Shown here piece by piece: positions 7,262 through 54,018 of a stretch of 64,000 nt of DNA. The notes beneath the pieces are model-generated. The model did no database searches, had not been told where the DNA came from, and saw nothing but the letters and a program-made list of their open reading frames with translations. Numbering within the stretch: position 1 is the first letter of the stretch; the number at the start of each line of letters is the position of its first letter. Made by a program: the position numbers and the translations under genes. This DNA is from Lama guanicoe (taxonomy: Eukaryota): positions 3,938,071-4,002,070 of the forward strand of contig MU053810.1 in assembly GCA_013239625.1 (NCBI GenBank), written 5' to 3'.

Positions 7262-7393
<132 letters not shown>

Positions 7394-9838: not shown

Positions 9839-10222
<384 letters not shown>

Positions 10223-17228: not shown

Positions 17229-17402
<174 letters not shown>

Positions 17403-18215: not shown

Positions 18216-18883
18216 TCTTTAAGATAATCACACCATTGTGCTATATTTGATTTTAAACTCGATTCCCCAAAAAATCTAAGTAGAAGCAAGAATTTGTAAA
18301 GTCCTCCTATGGACTTTTAACAAGGGGCATCTCAGACGGTAGTAAAAAGGCCAATTTTCTGGGGGTATTCTGTCAGTTTGATCAGACTTACCACAACTAC
18401 GGTTTTCTAAAATGTCTGCTAAAAAAAGAGAGCCATGAACGCCCACGTAGAATTTCCAGACTTCCAGGGCAGGCTCTGTAGATGGAGCACCTGTGTTTCT
18501 ACCCTCCTTTTTCTGCTGAGCAGGTGGAGCAGACTGTGATGGGGGCAACTCATGGCAACCCCCTCTTCTCACAGAGGGCAGAGCCTCAGATTTCTCTCCC
18601 ACAGGCCTCACGGTCGGCGGGGTGAACATATTCCCAGTGCGGGGGTATCTCTTGTCCAGCCCACCACGCTGTTCCCAGTCTTCTGGGCAGGCGCTTTAGG
18701 GGTGGGCGTGGAACTTGGTTCTGGGCAGTGTGACGTTAGGAAAGGTCTGTGGAGGAGGGGAACACAGGAGCACCGGGAGGAGGTTTCTCTGTGGCTCTCG
18801 ACACTGCCACGTGTGGAAATGATGCCAGGAACTGGCACAGTCACCTGGTAGCCACAAACCAGTGCACAGAGAACGAGCTTTTA

Positions 18884-18980: not shown

Positions 18981-19264
18981 CCATGATGGGCTTTTAAAAA
19001 CAAGGAAATAATTTTGACTGCTGACTTTGCCTAACCATTAACTCAACTAGCTCGGAAACCTGTCATACCTCTGGTCTTCCTGGAATGTCATATAATAAGT
19101 CAACAATTGGTGAGAGTTTCTGTCAGCTCTAGCTGAAAGCATCCTGACAGTCTGGCTAAGTGACATGATGTAAATTACTTACCCTTTCTGTGCGTTAGTT
19201 TCCTCTTATGCAAAATAATAGTGCCTATTTCATAGAGTTAGTCAGGATTAAGCCAACCCTCAAA

Positions 19265-24765: not shown

Positions 24766-26299
24766 CACCTCATTTAAGGTGAACGCTGAAGTCCTTACAA
24801 TGATCTAGGTCTCATCCCATCTGGCACCATCCTCTCACCTCTGCCCTCATCTCCACTGCTCCCCTTGTCCCTCCTCTCTCCCCACTGCCCCCACACCAGC
24901 CTCCTTGCTGGGCCTGTGACACCCATGCCCACTCTTTCCTGCTTCTGTCCGCTGCCTGGAACACAGTTCCCTGTTAGATCAGAATGCTTCCCCTTCAAGC
25001 CTGCAGGTCTTCCCCCCAAATACATGTCCAAGAAGCCATCCTTGATCACAATATCTAAAATGACACCCCTTCCCCACTCCACACAATATTTCTCCTGTTC
25101 CCTCCCTGCTGTTTCTTTCTTAGCACTTAGCACCGCTTAGCTTATTTATTACACAGTCTGCTTGTTCATCATTGGTTTCCTGACTAGAACATACACTTCA
25201 CAAAGGACAGACTTTCATCAGTTTGTGGACTGCTGCCTCCGCAGTGCCTAATTCTTCACTAATCCCAGGACTGCGGTCAGTACTGAGCTTCTCCCGCACA
25301 TACCAGATACCAGAGCATTAACACAGTCCCCCCAGGACTGTGGGGGAAGAAAAATTCACATGGGCATCAGTGGCTCCTTTGTTCAGGCAACAAGCATTAA
25401 CTGAACACCTGGCACTGTCAGTCTGTCCGCTGGGCACAGCCACTGCCTTTGGCTGGAGAAGCTCCCCACCAGGGAATGCCAAGGAATCCAGGGCAAGAAG
25501 TCATTCCTATCAGTAAACAACTGGAACAGGTTAGACACTGTGCCCACAGTGCTTACCATCCGCTACCGCCAATATGTGCTTTCACAACCACCAATAAACC
25601 AGATTCTGTGTGCACCCTCATCTCTTTTAACAGAGGCACCCACTTCATACAGTTGAGCGGGGGCAACTGAGCTGGCAGTGCCATCTCATTTCACCAGTCC
25701 CCACCACTGCGCTATGGTCCTTTCTTCTCACCCCTGGAGCTGCCTCAGTGTGCAGGGCTTGCCTCTAAGCCAGCCCACCTGGCACCATGAAGCTTCTGTC
25801 TTCGGGAACTCTAAGTGCCCCCAAAGCAGCTTACCTAGTGCAGGCCACTTAAGGATTTCAGATGATTTCTAGAAAGGAAAATACTACTCTCCCCCAACCC
25901 TGGGCCCAAAACATCAGCTCTACGTTATCCAAATAAACAAAGCTGGGGCAGAGGGGGCAAAGAAGGGTTATGAGAGAGGGACTGCAAAAAAGGGTCAAGG
26001 AGTAACAGTTACATTGGTAAAGTTATTCGGTACTATGTACTATGTATCTATGGTACTTTTTCAAACACATTACCCAGATGAACTCACTGGATGTTTGCTG
26101 CAAACTATGAAGTAGGCACTATTCACCATCACAGCTGTTTCCCGATGAGGTAGCCAGGCACGGAGAAGTGAAGTGACTTGCCTAGCTCTTGGGCCCTGTG
26201 GAGTGTCAGGATTCCAGCCCAGGCAGTCTGGCTCCAGAGCCCTGCTTAGTGTACAGTAGTACACTTTAGACATTAAAACAAACGGCAGCCCTGTGGCCT

Positions 26300-27110
26300 A
26301 GAGCGAGGGACCTGGGGAGTGGCGGAGAGCGGAAAGAGGGGCGGGGCGCGGGCAGAGGGGCGGGGCGCGGGAAGGCGGTAGAAGGGAAGAGGCGCGGCGC
26401 GGCGGCGAAGCGCGGGAAGAGCAGGGCAGCGGCGGCGGGCGGCGGAGCGCGGGAAAGAGGCGCGGGGCGGTAGAGGGGAAGAGGCCCGGGGCGGCGGCGG
26501 GGAGGTGGAGCGCGGGAAGGTAGAGGGGCAGAGGAGCGGGGCGGCGGACGGCGGGCGGGCGGGCCCGCGAGGGGCAGGAGGCGCGGGCCCGGGCGCCGCT
26601 GCTCTCGCCGGTCACCTGGGGCTGAACTGGAATTGATCAATCGTGGACTGGAGGTCCTCGATGATCTTCCAGCACTCCTCGGTCTCGGGCGCGTCGCCAC
26701 AGCTCTCCATCCGAGCCGCCGAGATGGCGGCCAGGCAGTACCTGCGCCTCCCGCGGAGTCGGGAACTCTGCGTCCGTTATCATGGCGACTCCTCGCGAAC
26801 CCGCGGAGCGCGAGAATCCCGGGGCGCAGGCGCGGCGGGCAGCCCGGGAACGGCTGGGCGGGCCCGCAGTCGCCCCGCTGCCGCGTCTACAGCCCGCCTG
26901 GCTCGGGGCTTCACCACCAGGCTCGCTTCTCCCTCGGTGCGCATGGGCCAGGCCGCCGCTGATGTGTCCCCAGGAGAGCTGGACCTCATAGTCACCCCGC
27001 GGCATCCTGCCACGCCCCGAACTCGGAGTGTCTTCTGCCTCCTGCGAGGGAGGGAAGTGGACACCTGAGCTTTTGCCGACATCTACACCCCTCTCCACGT
27101 GACATCGGGA
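26300..27110. promoter_or_regulatory. CpG island / promoter of C10orf67 ortholog
   Basis: GC- and CpG-rich block spanning exon 1, with several GGGGCGGGG boxes, CACGTGAC near 27097 and an X-box-like GTTATCATGGCGAC at 26776-26789. Confidence 0.85.
26616..26710 (-). CDS. C10orf67: C10orf67 ortholog, coding exon 1 (MESCGDAPETEECWKIIEDLQSTIDQFQFSP + 2 nt)
   Basis: ATG at 26710-26708 is the first in-frame ATG after TGA TAA (26782-26777). 95 nt ending CCC AG|GTGACC (phase 2), matching exon 2. Lies in the CpG island. Peptide does not match the recalled human N-terminus, so the call rests on splice phase and position. Confidence 0.72.
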
Positions 27111-30100
27111 GGTCACAGGCTCATTCTGGCCCTATGCTAAAGGTCATCCTCGGGAAGGATGAAAAATAGAGCGCTCATCTAATAAGAATGCCCTTTACCT
27201 AGTGAGCCTTGGGCTGTCAGAGCAATCCCATAGTAAGAGGCCAGCAGGCAGCCAGGAGAATTGCCTACACCTGCCACTTGGCCACAGGCGTTCATGGACA
27301 AAAAAATTCTTTGCAGAGATTAAACAGGCTTACATTCTTATTTAATATAAGGTCAGAACATTAAGTTAAAAGGCATTAACTTTCAATCCATATCGTGTTG
27401 CGAGAAATTCATTTTTGCTGAGTTTCAACAATAAGGCAAGTTCCTTATAGGGAAACTGTTGCTCAGCCTTTAAGTTGTGTATCGCTTACTGGCAATGATG
27501 TGAGACATCTATTTTGATAGCATCAATATGTCATTGCCTGGTTTTAGAACTCAGACTACATTTTCATTTCTATCTATTGTCTACAGGAAAACACTATTTT
27601 CTTCTCATAATTCTCTTAATTGTGTGAAAAAGAAGTTAGTTTGGTATTGGAAGCTCAAAATACAAAGAATACAAAGAATGTATCACTGTAGTGTTAGCAC
27701 TGCTCCTATATTTAAAGACAAAGATGTAAAGTCCTAAATGCCAAATAAAAATCATAACCAGGGCCAAAACAATCTTTTGTGAAGATTCATTTTCCTCCGG
27801 GAAGGTGAAGAGAGGAGAAAAAAAGTTACTTTTACTCTATGGCCAGTTTTATTTTCAAAGTCTAACTTCTAAGTTTTCTTCAGAAAACTTTACTATATAA
27901 TCAAAAGAGTATTTTAAAATATATATGTAAGTATAATAAGTATATGTAAATAAAATTGTCTTTTCTGAAGTGAATGTTTATTTTACCACAATGCATATGA
28001 AATTTTTTAGGGGAGTAAAATTCCAAGTCCAAATAAAAAGCCTGATCCTCTTAGAACTGGGCCAAAATAATGACAAGACTGACAAGCCTTTGGCTATTTT
28101 GCTAATGGAATGCTAAATGAATATTTTGAAACTGAGGAGAGAGATTTCACAGTAGATTTCATGAGTCATTGGTCAGCTCTGTGCAGTGTTTGTTGATCTA
28201 TATGGGATGCGTGGTTACACCATCCCACGAAAACATGTGCTGAACAAAACCTCTTTGTTTGAAACAATGCTATATAGCATATCAAGGAGCTTCAGATTTC
28301 AGTATCTAGGAGACCAAGTTATGATGATGTTTGTTTTTCAAACTATTAACTACGTAACACTTCTTATCGGTTACCTACATTAATCTCTCAGGAGTTCTGC
28401 CTTATAAAAATGTTCATTTCAGATCCTATGGCCGCCTCTAATACCCAGGGCTGGCACTGGCAAAGCATTTATCATACTAAATCCAGGCCTTTTGTATCAC
28501 ATGTTGAATTCACTGATGGTTGTTAGTAGAAAGCTCATTAGCTCTGGAGTAAACATTAAAAAATAATAGTAGCTTTAAAACTTACTTGCTTTAGCACATG
28601 GGGGAAGTTTTTTTTTTTTTTAATAGCATTTCTGAGCCCCTGTTTTCTCACCAGTATGAACTGGATAAGGAACCTTTTTTGGGGTGGTTGGGAATAGTCC
28701 AGAAAGCGAGAAAAGCAGGCAGCCCAGGGAACACACTGCTAGTCCGATGCTGAACTGGCCTTCAAGGAGTGTGTTCCTTCTAAACCACAACTGAGGAATG
28801 CATTGTTTCCCATTTTCCATTTGAAAAAAGTCAAATATTTCATAAGCTGAAATAGTTTTTACTTGCTTAATTAATAGGACTTAGGGCCCAGTTTTAAATT
28901 TTCAAGTGCTTCTCTGAAACATATATAAATATCATGTGTATTTATATGAAAATAACACCTACCAATTATTAAAAGGGTTCACATCTCGGGTTAAATAGCA
29001 GGAGGATTTGATGAAGAGTCAAGTGCTGGCTCTAAACGTAGTAATTTATATATTCCAGTTGGATATTATCAGTTCTAGAGTCTAATAAAAGCCAAGAGGT
29101 TTCAGTGTAGGTTTGTAATTTAAATTCTTTCTAGAGAGTCATCGTATGTAAAGTGCTTATTTTTCTTTTATCACCAGCTGTAATCTATGATTATGTGGTG
29201 CAGGCTCTGTTATGTAAACTAGTTTTATGTCGTGCTTCATCCAGAACCAAAGATCTTAAATAAAAAGGGTGGAAAAACAAAGAGCAAAGTCCTTGGCCAA
29301 GACAATGTGATGCTGCTAAATCCTTTATGGAAAAACTCCTGAGACGTGATCGTTTTCACATCTTAAATTTTGCTGCCATGAGATAACGTGTCCGCTCTTG
29401 TAAAAATCCATCAATAAGTGTTTGTTATCTGGCTAAAGCTGAAAAGCAAGAGGAGGGACAGGATAGGGAGTTTGGGCAGGAGGGACTTTGACAGGGAATT
29501 TGGATCTTACTGCTAAATGTTCTCCAGCGCTGTCATAATAGGGCATCCTCTGTTTGGAGCTAAGTTTAGATCTTTAAAAGGGAGCTCAAGAAAAATGGGA
29601 AGAAAATGGAAGAATTGAGCCATCCACCTGAGAGAAGATTTAGGGACCTGCTGCTGAAGGGAATGGGGATATCTCCAGGTCTGGTCATGTGACCAGAGGG
29701 GATCTTCACGCCCAGCTCTTAGGAAATCTGTAACACGTCCTTTGCAGCCTATGGTGGGGTGGTTCAGGAAAAAGTCTGAATGGAGTGTCATAAAGGCAGT
29801 GACCGTATTTCATGCAATCCAAGATTTTATACAAAGGTGTTCAAAATGTCAATCTTAGAATCCGTTGAAAAAGGTCTAATAAGGATTTATCAGGCAAAGA
29901 CCTGTTCAGGGGGTTCCATTTCATCAGATCATACAGGGAGCTAGTCTCGTGAAAAGAACATTCATCAGGCTTTTCCATGAGTTGGATAAAATACCCACAT
30001 AGTACCATGCAGTTCTCTATTCTTTTTCCAGTGTCACAAGGTAGCTTGCCCATAACTAATACAGAGTCACAGGTAGAGAGACTTCCAAAAAAGACTTGGT

Positions 30101-49640: not shown

Positions 49641-49921
49641 TACAATGTTTTAATTTTTAATGATTACTTATAATTTTGTGATGGGAAAAATAATATATAC
49701 ACAGGTAGATTTTAAAATAGTCTTCTTAAATACATTTAGAAGTATCAAAACTAATCACTATATTAATACGAGTTTAATACACATACAGTGCTGTTATAAC
49801 CAATTGACAGATGTTATATAACTGAGGCCAAATATGCAAATATGACTCCGCCCCTGTGCGGGTAACTTAGCACAGGGGACTGGTTCAAAGAGCAGGCTGC
49901 TTTTAAAGAAACTAAACAGTA

Positions 49922-52380
49922 CCTTCCTTGGGCCTTCCGTGTGCAATGGCTCTGGACTCAGGTCCCTTACCCGAAGGGCCTCTCTTAAAGCTGCTACCCG
50001 TAGACGCTAGGGACAGGGCCACCCAGCGCTCTCGCCTGGGCCTGGCCGCCCTCCGCGCCTTGGGCGCGCACCTGGGCTCCGCGGTGAAGATCTCGCTGCC
50101 TGAGGCGGCTCCTGTCTCCGCATCGCTTGGCCACGGCGGGATGGAGCGGACGGCTTTGTGCAGCTGGATCCTCAGTGCGCGAGTCCCGGGATGGCAGTGG
50201 GGGCGCCGGGGTCCCCGGGGAGTCTCAACCTCAGCCGCCTCCGCTTAGTACCCTGCCCGCCTCTTCAGCGCCTCGCCATGTGGCCAGTGTTGCGGGAGCG
50301 GGAGGGCTCGCCCGGTTCTCCGAATCCAGCCGCGGTGCTGGAGGCGGCGCAGGAGCTGCTGAGGAACCGTCCGGTCTCTCTGGGCCACGTGGCGGCCGCT
50401 CCTCCGGACGCCCCCGGCCCGGTGGCCGCCCTGCACATCATCAGCGGGGCGCCTAGCCCGGATCCGGCCGGGCTGGTCACCCCTCGCACCCACATCGGTC
50501 TCAGCGGGGTCCCTCGGAAGCGGAGCCGCAGCCCGAGGTGGCCCTGGGGGGCCTGTCGGAGGCAGCCGACTCGCTACGGCAGCTCCTCCGCCTGCCGCTC
50601 CGCTACCCCAGCGCGTTCGCCTCACTGGGGCTAGCGGTGCCCCGCGGGGTGCTCCTGGCCGGCCCTCCCGGAGTGGGCAAGAGCCAGCTCGTGCAGGCTG
50701 CGGCCCGGGAGGCGGGCGCGGAGCCGCTGGCCGTGAGCGCCCCGGCGCTGCAGGGCGCCCTGCCCGGGGAGGCCGGGGAGAACGTGCGTCGGGTCTTCCA
50801 GCGCGCCCGGGAGCTGGCCAGCCGCAGGCCCACCCTCCTCTTCCTGGACGAGGTGGACTCCCTGTGTCCTCGGCGGGGCGGCCCACACCAAGCCCCCGAG
50901 AGCCGCGTGGTGGCCGAGGTGTTGACGCTGCTAGACGGGATCAGTGGGGACCGCGAGGTGGTGATGGGATCCACCAATCGGCAGGACGCGCTAGACCCAG
51001 CGCTGCGCAGACCTGGGAGATTTGACCGAGAGGTTGTCATTGGGACTCCCACACTTAGACAAAGAAATGCAATTCTACAAGTGATTACCTCAAAGATGCC
51101 CATCTCCAGTCAAGTCGATTTGAGCCTCCTTGCAGAAATGACAGTTGGCTATGTTGGTGCAGACCTGACTGCACTCTGTAGGGAGGCTGCCATGCACGCT
51201 CTGCTTCATGGTGAGAAGGGTGAATTTCTTCAGAACCAGGACAATCCGATGACTGATGAAACAGACTTCCTTGAAGCTTTTAAAAAGATCCAACCCTCAT
51301 CATTCCGAAGTGTCATTGGACTGATGGACATCAAGCCTGTCGACTGGGAGCAGATTGGTGGCTTTGAAGATGTAAAACTGAAGTTAAAACAGAGCATTGA
51401 ATGGTCTCTGAAATTCCCCGGGCAGTTTGTCAGGATGGGCCTGGCACAACCAAAGGGGGTTCTCCTGTATGGTTCCCCTGGCTGTGCATAAACCACCCTG
51501 GTCAGGGCCCTGGCCACCAGCTGTCACTGCTCTTTTGTTTCAGTGAGCAGAGCTGATCTCTTTTCATCTTTTGTTGGAGATTCAGAAAAAATCTTGTCTC
51601 AGGTATTTTGACAAGCGAGAGCAAATACTCCAGCAATTGTGTTTTTGAATGAAATTGATTCAATCTTGGGTTCTTGATCAGTTGGCAGAACAGGATGTAA
51701 TGTTCAAGAGCGTGTTCTCTCTTTTCTCCTAGATGAATTAGATGGGGTTGGACTGAAGACTATAGAGAGAAGAGGAAGTAATTCAGAACAACATGGTAAA
51801 TACAAGGAGCTGGAAAAAAATGAAGAGCTAGTGTTTCAAGAAGTTTTTAATACCAATGTCATGATTGTTGCAGCAACAAACAGACCTAATGTGTTAGATG
51901 ATGCCTTGTTACGGCCTGGAAGATTAGATAAGATCATTCATATTCCACCTCCAGATGAAGAGGGCAGGCTTTCTATTTTGAAAATCTGCACAAAAAACAT
52001 GCCAGTGGGGCCTGATGTTTCCTTAGAAAAGCTAGCAGCAGAAATCTGTTTTTTCTCTGGAGCTGATCTTGAAAACCTCTGCAAAGAAGCCACCTTGCTG
52101 GCTCTGCAAGCAAATGGACTAGAAGCAACCACAGTGAGACAAGAGCATTTTCTAAAATCACTGGAAACTGTAAAACCATCCCTAAGTCACAAGGATTTGA
52201 CTTTATATAGAAACATATTTCAGAAGCCAGGATTTTCTACCTTAGAAGATATTTAAAAATTATTTTACATAACTGCCAAAGGATTAATTGAAATGTGAGC
52301 TTGCACTATAGTTTACATATTCACACTCTGTGTATTTCCTATAAATAAAAAAAAAAACTTGCTCCTGAAAAAAAAAAAAA
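49922..52380 (+). pseudogene. SPATA5L1: Processed pseudogene of AAA+ ATPase SPATA5L1/AFG2B (CDS remnant 49946-52256)
   Basis: Intronless full-length homology ([18 protein letters not shown]...GPPGVGKS...LFLDE...RRPGRFDRE...GFSTLEDI*). Frameshifts near 50103 and 50513; stops TAA 51489 (D2 Walker A Lys), TGA 51609, TGA 51675. AATAAA 52344-52349, polyA, TSD AAAGAAACTAA(A/G)CAGTA at 49905-49921 and 52381-52397 after TTTT (L1 endonuclease-type site). Confidence 0.96.
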
Positions 52381-54018
52381 AAAGAAACTAAGCAGTAAAA
52401 TAAAGATACAGAGTAAAAGCTGCAGAGCCTGGTGGGTAAACATTCATTGATCAGAGGCAGATTAGCCCAGAAAGGCTTAGGTCTAGGACACAATTACACA
52501 GAGTTATTTATTTTTTTTTTTTAGATAGCTGTACCGAAAGCCATTTACCCTGGAACCCAGGCTTGAATAATCCCACCAGTGAGGGTTAGTGGTATGAACC
52601 AGCAAGCTTTAGGTAACGGATGTTAAATTGTTTCAAGATAGTTTAAGAAATGTAACTAGGCACCACTATGCTACAAATACTTTATAGCAAGATTTTCTTG
52701 CTTTAGCCTAAAAGTTTTATTTATTTGTTGGTTGGTCTATTTTTAATTCAACACACCTGGTGGACTGTGCATTAAGGACACTCTAAAGAGAAAGATGTCT
52801 TTTAATGGATATTTGTTAATGTTTACCAATATATCAATAATGTTTATTGGTTGCTTTTGATGGGACAGACACAGTGCTTAGCAAGCTTGTGTGTATTGTC
52901 TGATGTAATCCACACAACATATGAGGTAGATACTAATATTAGACTCATACCAGCTTTCCCAACAACCCTATGAGGTAGTTACTATTATAAGATCCATTTC
53001 ACAAGTAAAGAACCTTCCCAAGGACACACAGCAAGTTAAGTGGGCAGAGCCAGGGTTTAACTCAGGTTTGTTTCCATTCCAGGCTTGAACTTTTAACCAC
53101 ACTGCTACATCTAAGAAGAAATACAGGGTAAAAGTTCTTGAGAGGACAGCCTCGAGAAGGAAAATTTGTAATCACAAATGCACAAAGCCAGTGGAACTTA
53201 GAGATCTCTCCGTCCAGATGGGGAAGCTGAGTCACACAGTGCTCAGTCACATGATTAGCAGATGAGCCAGCACATGGACCCAGGGACTCCAGATGTACAG
53301 AACATCCATTTTCCATTCATCTCTATACTTGTAGACATTTGTGTGGTGGTGATGGAAAGCTTACCTGCCAATGGGAGAATGCCTTCAAGCCCTCCATTGT
53401 TGGTAAAAGACACTAGTCAGTCCTCATCTCCCATCCCTCTCTCCCTTAACATTGAACTTCCTGGCCCTCTGAACAAGAATTCCGTGTCTACAGTTATTCC
53501 TGGGCTATGCCCATCCTTTTAAGCATCATTTAAAATTTTTTCTAAATGTATAATCTAGACCAAACGCTTGACTAAGAGCAAGTGGTTGCCATGGCACTCG
53601 AGACAGCATTCACAGAGCACAAACATCTTCCTAATATAGTTTTTCTAATAAAAATAGAAAGTGGAGAGAGCAGTGCATTGATGTAGGGTGAGGGGACTGG
53701 AAAAATAAACCATACTTCATTGTGTGTAGCTTTTATCCCCCCCATTTTTGGTATCATTATTTAAACTCCAGTCAGTATCATAGCCATCTTCAGAGGCAGT
53801 CAAACTCCTGGAACTTGCCACTGTGTATTTGGAGTGTCTTACGCCTGAGTTACTGTTAACTATAAATAGATGATCCTCAAAATGACTTACTGATCAGGTA
53901 TGCAGGGCAACTACACTGTCACTGAACATGCCTGTGGTGTCTTGTCAGGGGCACAGGACAGAATAACACAAATAGGCTGAGATATATGGACTGTAAAATT
54001 ACCTTGCCCAGAACCTTC

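What the first reader, a model, noticed from the sequence alone, without database searches (positions are those of the whole stretch)
27121..27231. Stop-interrupted homolog of the human C10orf67 N-terminus lies upstream of this species' exon 1
Seen: the minus strand from ATG 27231 translates MGLL*QPKAH*VKGILIR*ALYFSSFPRMTFSIGPE*. Recalled (needs checking): human C10orf67 begins [37 protein letters not shown]. Ungapped from the second Met, 15 of 36 positions match, and the three internal stops face R, Y and W, each one base from a stop. The intact exon 1 here (26616-26710) encodes an unrelated acidic peptide. Inference: the two lineages use different first coding exons, and the human N-terminus may have been recruited from promoter-proximal non-coding DNA (or lost here).
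Basis: partly seen in the sequence, partly recalled or inferred. Interest (0 to 1): 0.7.

Follow-up and report, generated by a model that had tools for sequence, protein, structure and literature searches.

The report
Non-coding counterpart of primate first exon
This camelid DNA just upstream of the C10orf67 gene is the non-coding counterpart of a first exon that apes and some Old World monkeys added, while the older first exon is still kept in primates, so the human reference protein probably starts with a young add-on rather than the ancestral start.

Summary
Observation confirmed. The window is a South American camelid C10orf67 locus; 27231-27121 (minus) matches human Q8IYJ2 at 15 of 36 residues, with stops against R, Y and W. 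It is orthologous DNA, but 15 of 36 is what neutral divergence gives, flanking non-coding DNA matches as well, the frame also breaks by indels, and the likely donor is very weak and out of phase. The interpretation needs correcting: this is not an exon swap. The acidic exon 1 goes back to platypus and is kept in 14 of 24 catarrhines, including a partial human model. The complete human-type start appears in 13 of 24 catarrhines and 0 of 56 non-primates, and looks broken in papionins and New World monkeys. Best reading (0.7): catarrhines turned promoter-edge DNA into an extra first exon. The three stops are camelid-derived (pig has R, Y, W), so an old exon lost repeatedly is not excluded (0.13). 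Side results: the family-wide 'mitochondrial' label probably comes from the young human start, and the human copy of the old exon lacks a near-invariant cysteine. All cross-species evidence is annotated protein; no orthologous DNA or reads were seen.

The parts
27121..27231 (-). Stop-interrupted frame orthologous to residues 2-37 of human C10orf67 (type B start); non-coding here; ATG 27231 opens only a 4-codon frame
26985..27231 (-). Probable full counterpart of the catarrhine type B exon (247 nt against 206 coding nt in human); 3' half aligns only with frameshifting gaps, end point uncertain (27031 or about 26990)
   Evidence: end placed by the macaque read-through model P0140 (Z 4.4); human 38-69 alone is not significant (Z 0.7)
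26979..26984 (-). Very weak GT (GAG|GTCCAG) at the inferred position of the primate donor; rough matrix score -4.2 against +2.8 for the used donor
   Evidence: position inferred from conceptual translations
26200..27100 (.).
26637..26783 (-). 48-codon upstream frame from ATG 26783, out of frame with and overlapping exon 1; the same ATG is in frame (MATDAG-type extension) in whales, cats, foxes, colugo, a bat and apes
26616..26710 (-). Ancestral first coding exon (type A, acidic, predicted helix at residues 9-29), donor CAG|GTGACC at 26615, phase 2
17247..17367 (-). Exon 2, start of DUF4709 (PF15821, 56.6 bits, cut-off 27)
10058..10201 (-). Exon 3 (DUF4709)
7286..7360 (-). Exon 4 (end of DUF4709)

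Best explanation
In this camelid the stretch is ordinary non-coding DNA on the upstream edge of the C10orf67 CpG-island promoter, and the gene starts at the ancestral acidic exon (26710). In the common ancestor of pig, camelid and human the stretch happened to hold an ATG and about 36 stop-free codons but no usable splice into exon 2. In the catarrhine ancestor an upstream start site, small indels and a stronger 5' splice site (inferred +3 C to G) turned it into an extra first exon that splices in phase to exon 2 and replaces the acidic helix by a basic 69-residue leader. The old exon was kept alongside. Shown: orthology, stops, neutral-level similarity, distribution of annotated N-termini. 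Inferred: indels, donor position and change, timing, promoter use.
For: Type A found in 47 of 56 non-primates, including elephant shrew, hamster, pocket mouse and platypus, and 14 of 24 catarrhines; complete type B in 0 of 56 non-primates, 13 of 24 catarrhines, 0 of 4 other primates. A profile of pig, window and vervet type B starts retrieved 12 proteins among 659 candidates: 9 catarrhine, 1 Aotus, 2 pig. Among 99 deeper homologues only 1 (a Saimiri model without Met) resembles type B; many end in an acidic stretch before the core. Simulated neutral drift at 0.4 substitutions per site gives 15.0 +/- 2.7 of 36 (the distance is recalled), against 20 of 32 for type A and 89 of 113 for the core. 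Fixed-position identity 75 of 114 for human type B against 66 of 90, 43 of 57 and 41 of 53 for neighbouring read-through models of macaque, warthog and fox. Frameshifting gaps after codon 33; ATG to candidate donor 247 nt, wrong phase. A stop-free 36-codon stretch arises by chance in 12-14% of such DNA. The two pig models disagree after residue 52, one lacks Met, neither has the conserved R at the exon 2 junction, and pig RefSeq uses type A.
Against: Human and camelid share the ATG and pig shares R, Y, W, so the frame's first half was open in the ancestor; three stops on one branch is at the upper end of neutral decay (P 0.04-0.07). Absence of type B in non-primates is absence from annotation; cluster listings show at most 15 members and the search needs exact 5-residue words. 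The exon end and donor are inferred from single predicted models, and the full human alignment ends at 27031, not 26990. No orthologous DNA and no reads were examined.
Confidence: 0.7

Rival explanations
1. The type B exon was an alternative first coding exon in the boreoeutherian ancestor and decayed independently in camelids and most other lineages; the window holds a true pseudo-exon.
For: Shared ATG in human and camelid; about 37 open codons in pig with R, Y, W kept; the three stops are camelid-derived.
Against: 0 of 56 non-primates with a complete type B; similarity no higher than neutral or than flanking DNA; pig models inconsistent and not joined normally; candidate donor weak in camelid, same +3 C in warthog, apparently absent in fox; needs many independent losses.
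Confidence: 0.13
2. The origin is as in the best explanation, but the primate exon is a minor upstream transcript whose frame is incidental; the working protein in primates, human included, starts at the acidic exon or a downstream Met, and the human canonical N-terminus with its mitochondrial label is an annotation choice. This concerns function and can be true together with the best explanation.
For: Human against Old World monkey type B identity 59-61 of 68 (87-90%), neutral expectation 87 +/- 4% at a recalled distance of 0.065, core 111-112 of 113. Papionin models are broken: mandrill lacks W36, three models are cut after residue 34, macaque models start at Met39, rhesus, crab-eating macaque and baboon listings show no type B. 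The reference rhesus carries a heterozygous C10orf67 start-loss (PMC4214606 Table 3; which start is not stated). Human partial model P0156 splices type A to exon 2.
Against: Frame complete in 13 catarrhine species; rough chance of survival 0.02-0.12, though those models are guided by the human protein. The C-terminal part of the protein diverges as fast (about 90%). All 9 listed human models that reach a start Met upstream of the core are type B.
Confidence: 0.45
3. The match is chance or a repeat-derived resemblance, not orthology.
For: tblastn E 0.15 for the human peptide; one or more shuffles beat the BLOSUM score; a seal model shows that predictors can assemble human-like starts from intron pieces.
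Against: Best hit of the whole window lies 520 nt upstream of exon 1 on the gene's strand; pig E 6e-6; Z 7.7-9.2 by back-translation; collinear read-through models of macaque, fox and warthog; no second copy in the window.
Confidence: 0.02

Closest known systems
C10orf67 / DUF4709 (PF15821) family, human Q8IYJ2
   Same: Exons 2-4 in the window encode DUF4709; camelid models are 79% identical to human over the core.
   Different: The camelid protein starts with the acidic type A exon (net charge -7 in 31 residues), the human reference with the basic type B leader (net +4 in 30).
Primate-specific alternative first exons, e.g. dACE2 (10.1101/2020.07.19.210955) and eTNS1 exon 1E (PMC12753235); seen as search listing and start of abstract only
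   Same: A lineage-limited first exon splices into an old gene and changes the N-terminus, while the old start is kept.
   Different: Those start inside the gene and shorten the protein, with experimental support; here the new exon lies just upstream of the old one, swaps a 31-residue helix for a 69-residue leader, has become the reference isoform, and has no functional test that I found.
De novo exonization of non-coding DNA with enabling mutations (de novo gene birth review PMC6542195, seen as search listing only; concept from own knowledge)
   Same: Orthologous non-coding DNA with disablers in an outgroup, neutral-level similarity, young and patchy distribution.
   Different: The camelid stops are derived, not shared ancestral disablers; the shared barrier appears to be splice site and phase, which I could only infer. 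No transposon origin was seen, but no repeat library was available.
Lost (pseudogenised) coding exon
   Same: Orthologous stretch with in-frame stops.
   Different: No evidence of a coding ancestor outside primates.

Membership tests
C10orf67 / DUF4709 gene | PF15821 above its curated cut-off | tested here: met
   exon 2: 56.6 bits, cut-off 27; exon 4: 23.8 bits, below cut-off alone; 100% to camelid orthologues
Lost coding exon (pseudo-exon) | Orthologous to a coding exon elsewhere, with disabling changes | tested here: met
Lost coding exon (pseudo-exon) | Complete, spliceable frame in lineages on both sides of the split | tested here: not met
   0 of 56 non-primates complete; 2 flagged partial (pig; seal, the latter from intron pieces); annotation only
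Lost coding exon (pseudo-exon) | Residual similarity above neutral flanks | tested here: not met
De novo exonized first exon | Orthologous non-coding DNA in outgroups | tested here: met
   this window: stops, frameshifting gaps, weak out-of-phase donor
De novo exonized first exon | Disabler shared by several outgroups and removed in the ingroup | tested here: inconclusive
   stops are not shared with pig; +3 C at the candidate donor in camelid, dromedary and warthog against G in macaque is inferred from translations
De novo exonized first exon | Transcribed, spliced and translated in the ingroup | not testable with these tools
   curated human NP_ records exist; no reads, CAGE or peptides seen
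De novo exonized first exon | Not joined to exon 2 in the outgroup's RNA | not tested
   no read alignment was obtained
Mitochondrial presequence protein | Basic N-terminus nearly free of acidic residues (own knowledge) | tested here: not met
   camelid type A: 1 basic, 8 acidic in 31; human type B: 5 basic, 1 acidic in 30. Hydrophobic moment does not separate them (0.64 and 0.68). No predictor run.

The most novel reading that the evidence does not exclude
Catarrhines built a mitochondrial-type presequence from promoter-edge DNA and attached it to an ancient coiled-coil testis protein, and in humans alone the ancestral first exon is damaged (G in place of a cysteine found in 114 of 120 type A sequences, which a one-base deletion would explain as well as a substitution), so that the human protein depends on the young exon and is sent to another compartment than in other mammals.
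Probability: 0.08. Interest if true: 0.72.

Novelty: new member of a known kind. Interest (0 to 1): 0.32.

Why it matters
Young alternative first exons are a known kind, and the stretch itself probably does nothing as coding DNA in camelids. The value is practical. The human reference N-terminus of C10orf67 looks about as young as the catarrhines and unconstrained, while the exon conserved since platypus is present only as a partial human model. The word 'mitochondrial' is carried by orthologue names down to crocodile and Xenopus although their starts are not presequence-like. Variant interpretation, cDNA choice for interaction screens and localisation claims could all rest on the wrong start. 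If the human copy of the old exon is broken, it would be a human-specific change in a dark testis-expressed gene.

Tried and rejected
No whole genome is held for the window, so no genome search. No read alignment was obtained, which leaves the junction and any expression of the stretch open. Pfam: 0 families for the stop-interrupted frame; Hce2 hit for exon 1 at E 0.057 is below cut-off and taken as chance. Rfam: 0 matches at E up to 1 in 26400-27800. Repeat origin: no second copy in the window beyond two 14-base matches. Human residues 38-69 alone do not align above chance (41 of 60 shuffles as good; Z 0.7). Seal model P0022 looks human-like but matches two intron 1 pieces near 19142 and 18857 (E 0.098 and 0.003), rejected as support for an old exon. 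Solved structures: 3 weak coiled-coil hits, E 0.001-0.007, uninformative. Earlier findings: 0 in 3 look-ups. Literature: C10orf67 47 papers, 30 listed; with mitochondrial 15; with testis 4; DUF4709 0; human-specific + frameshift + first exon + C10orf67 0; 4921504E06Rik, a recalled mouse name, 4; none of the listed titles or abstract starts concerns the gene's first exons. Supplements of PMC11928937, PMC11317171 and PMC9579139 hold no 'C10orf67' (one scanned file not searched). Database annotations (GENCODE, APPRIS, TOGA tables) and bioRxiv supplements that I could not see may already record this.

Full report
What is there. The window holds the 5' part of C10orf67 on the minus strand: exon 1 at 26710-26616, exon 2 at 17367-17247, exon 3 at 10201-10058 and exon 4 at 7360-7286. 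Exon 2 scores 56.6 bits on PF15821 and is identical to Vicugna and Camelus proteins. Exon 1 differs from alpaca models at 1 of 32 residues and lacks the five-residue duplication of Camelus, so the species is a South American camelid. No genome is held for it.

Observation. The translation is as stated, and the recalled human start is the true start of Q8IYJ2. Identity is 15 of 36, with TGA, TAG and TGA against R5, Y11 and W19. It is the best of 127,786 positions in the window and 0 of 300 shuffles reached 15 identities, but tblastn gives only E 0.15 and the best shuffled score (52) beat the observed 42. Orthology is carried by position (520 nt upstream of exon 1, same strand), by a pig model (E 6e-6), by back-translation (human Z 7.7, pig Z 9.2, 0 of 40 shuffles each) and by read-through models of macaque, fox and warthog that continue collinearly towards exon 1.

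Two kinds of N-terminus. I call the acidic exon type A and the human start type B. I sorted the named proteins into 84 species. Left out were three cat entries with cut names, crocodilians, Xenopus, unnamed entries and one unrelated bacterial protein; one Pongo sequence counts for both species; listings show at most 15 members a cluster, so a missing type is not proven absent. Type A: 47 of 56 non-primates, 14 of 24 catarrhines, 1 of 4 other primates; 8 non-primates had neither (partial or odd models, and possum, which looks related by eye but fell under the threshold). It reaches elephant shrew, hamster, pocket mouse and platypus. Complete type B: 0 of 56, 13 of 24, 0 of 4. A profile search with pig, window and vervet starts returned 12 proteins among 659 candidates, 9 catarrhine, 1 Aotus and 2 pig; human 1-69 alone returned 8, all catarrhine. 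Of 143 new proteins from the HMMER search, 99 had the core and a leader; 1 resembled type B, a Saimiri model without Met. A human 5'-partial model (P0156) joins type A to exon 2. So type A is ancestral and kept in primates, and type B is an addition.

Was the stretch ever coding outside primates? For: human and camelid share the ATG, and pig has R, Y and W at the three sites, so the stops arose on the camelid line; three stops on one branch has P 0.04-0.07 under neutral decay of an open frame. Against: 36 stop-free codons occur by chance in 12-14% of local DNA. Neutral drift of this very segment gives 16.3, 15.0 and 13.9 of 36 at 0.35, 0.40 and 0.45 substitutions per site (the range is from my own knowledge), while type A keeps 20 of 32 and the core 89 of 113. 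At fixed codon positions the human leader matches 75 of 114, no better than neighbouring read-through DNA (66 of 90, 43 of 57, 41 of 53). After codon 33 the alignment needs frameshifting gaps. The two pig models come from protein databases only, disagree after residue 52, one lacks Met, and neither has the conserved arginine at the exon 2 junction; pig RefSeq has type A. A seal model that looks human-like matches two pieces of intron 1, a warning that such models can be shaped by the human protein.

The splice site. A macaque read-through model places the last residues of type B at about 27006-26990 (Z 4.4). Six bases on lies GAG|GTCCAG at 26984, scored -4.2 by a rough matrix from textbook frequencies, against +2.8 for the used donor. 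From ATG 27231 it is 247 nt, phase 1, whereas exon 2 needs phase 2 and the human exon has 206 coding nt. Back-translation gives G at +3 in macaque and C in camelid and warthog, and the GT seems absent in fox. This suggests an enabling donor change, but it is inferred from single predicted proteins, the macaque frame is one base off a simple AG|GT reading, human 38-69 alone does not align above chance, and the full human alignment ends at 27031 instead. Treat it as a prediction.

Is type B functional in primates? Unclear. Human against five Old World monkeys: 59-61 of 67-68 residues, near the neutral 87 +/- 4% (recalled distance 0.065); the core keeps 111-112 of 113, but the C-terminal part also sits near 90%. 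The frame is complete in 13 species, with rough chance 0.02-0.12, yet papionin models are cut, lack W36 or start at Met39, and the reference rhesus is heterozygous for a C10orf67 start-loss (PMC4214606, Table 3 and annotation passages seen; the start is not named, the annotation leaned on human transcripts). Type B is basic (5 basic, 1 acidic in 30), type A acidic (1 and 8 in 31). I infer that the 'mitochondrial' label comes from a presequence prediction on type B and was passed on by name to orthologues such as crocodile and Xenopus. AlphaFold on a 50-sequence alignment gives a helix at 9-29 from type A (pLDDT about 70) before long coiled-coil helices, pTM 0.26; type B removes this helix.

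A human oddity. At the position 19 residues before the junction, 114 of 120 type A sequences have Cys. The six others are platypus (2), two short-leader sequences, hedgehog (register shift) and the human partial model, which has Gly; chimpanzee and orangutan projections have Cys. A T-to-G change or loss of that T would both read Gly. All 9 listed human models that reach a start Met upstream of the core are type B, while chimpanzee and bonobo have both. I could not see human DNA, so this stays a lead.

What is known. Passages seen: a NOD2 screen used a C10orf67 cDNA and found chimeric preys (PMC5094585); knockdown lowered hypoxic apoptosis in mouse cells and the gene was selected in Tibetan livestock (10.1101/743955); co-expression in testis (PMC10298883). 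None of these passages treats the first exons. The searches and three supplement searches showed no account of the two starts; databases I could not read may hold one. Earlier notes of this scan gave nothing.

Verdict. Real orthology, ordinary non-coding DNA in the camelid, and a fair case that the human reference start is a catarrhine addition beside a retained ancestral exon (0.7). Repeated loss of an old exon 0.13. New member of a known kind; interest 0.32. The limits are clear: all comparison rests on annotated proteins, and no orthologous DNA or read junction was seen.

Noticed in passing
window 26637-26783 (-): ATG in good context 73 nt upstream of the type A start opens a 48-codon out-of-frame frame overlapping exon 1. 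The same ATG is in frame in 22 of 56 non-primate and 3 of 24 catarrhine species' models; warthog and macaque read Ile there. Could dampen translation in camelids if the transcript starts upstream.
   Followed up: partly
window about 49905-52397 (+): Intronless AAA-ATPase retrocopy with in-frame stops, poly-A at 52368 and a 17-base target-site duplication with one mismatch; GC-rich 5' part explains the 74% GC peak at 50-51 kb. Looks like SPATA5L1/AFG2B (name recalled; Pfam gave AAA and AAA_lid_3).
   Followed up: partly
protein P0156 (human partial model): Gly in place of the near-invariant Cys of the ancestral exon; substitution or one-base deletion.
   Followed up: partly
window 18816-18857 and 19101-19142 (-): Intron 1 pieces that match the leader of seal model P0022, suggesting a predictor stitched a human-like start from intron DNA.
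   Followed up: partly
window 26317-26591: GC-rich degenerate tandem repeats (periods 19-37) just inside intron 1; macaque models show a similar C-rich expansion upstream of exon 1 instead.
   Followed up: no
window 26710 region, Camelus proteins P0004, P0097, P0106: Camelus has a five-residue duplication at the start of type A that Vicugna and this window lack.
   Followed up: no
window 26782-27082 (-): A 100-codon frame from ATG 27082, in frame with exon 1, ends at a stop overlapping ATG 26783; probably chance in GC-rich DNA.
   Followed up: no
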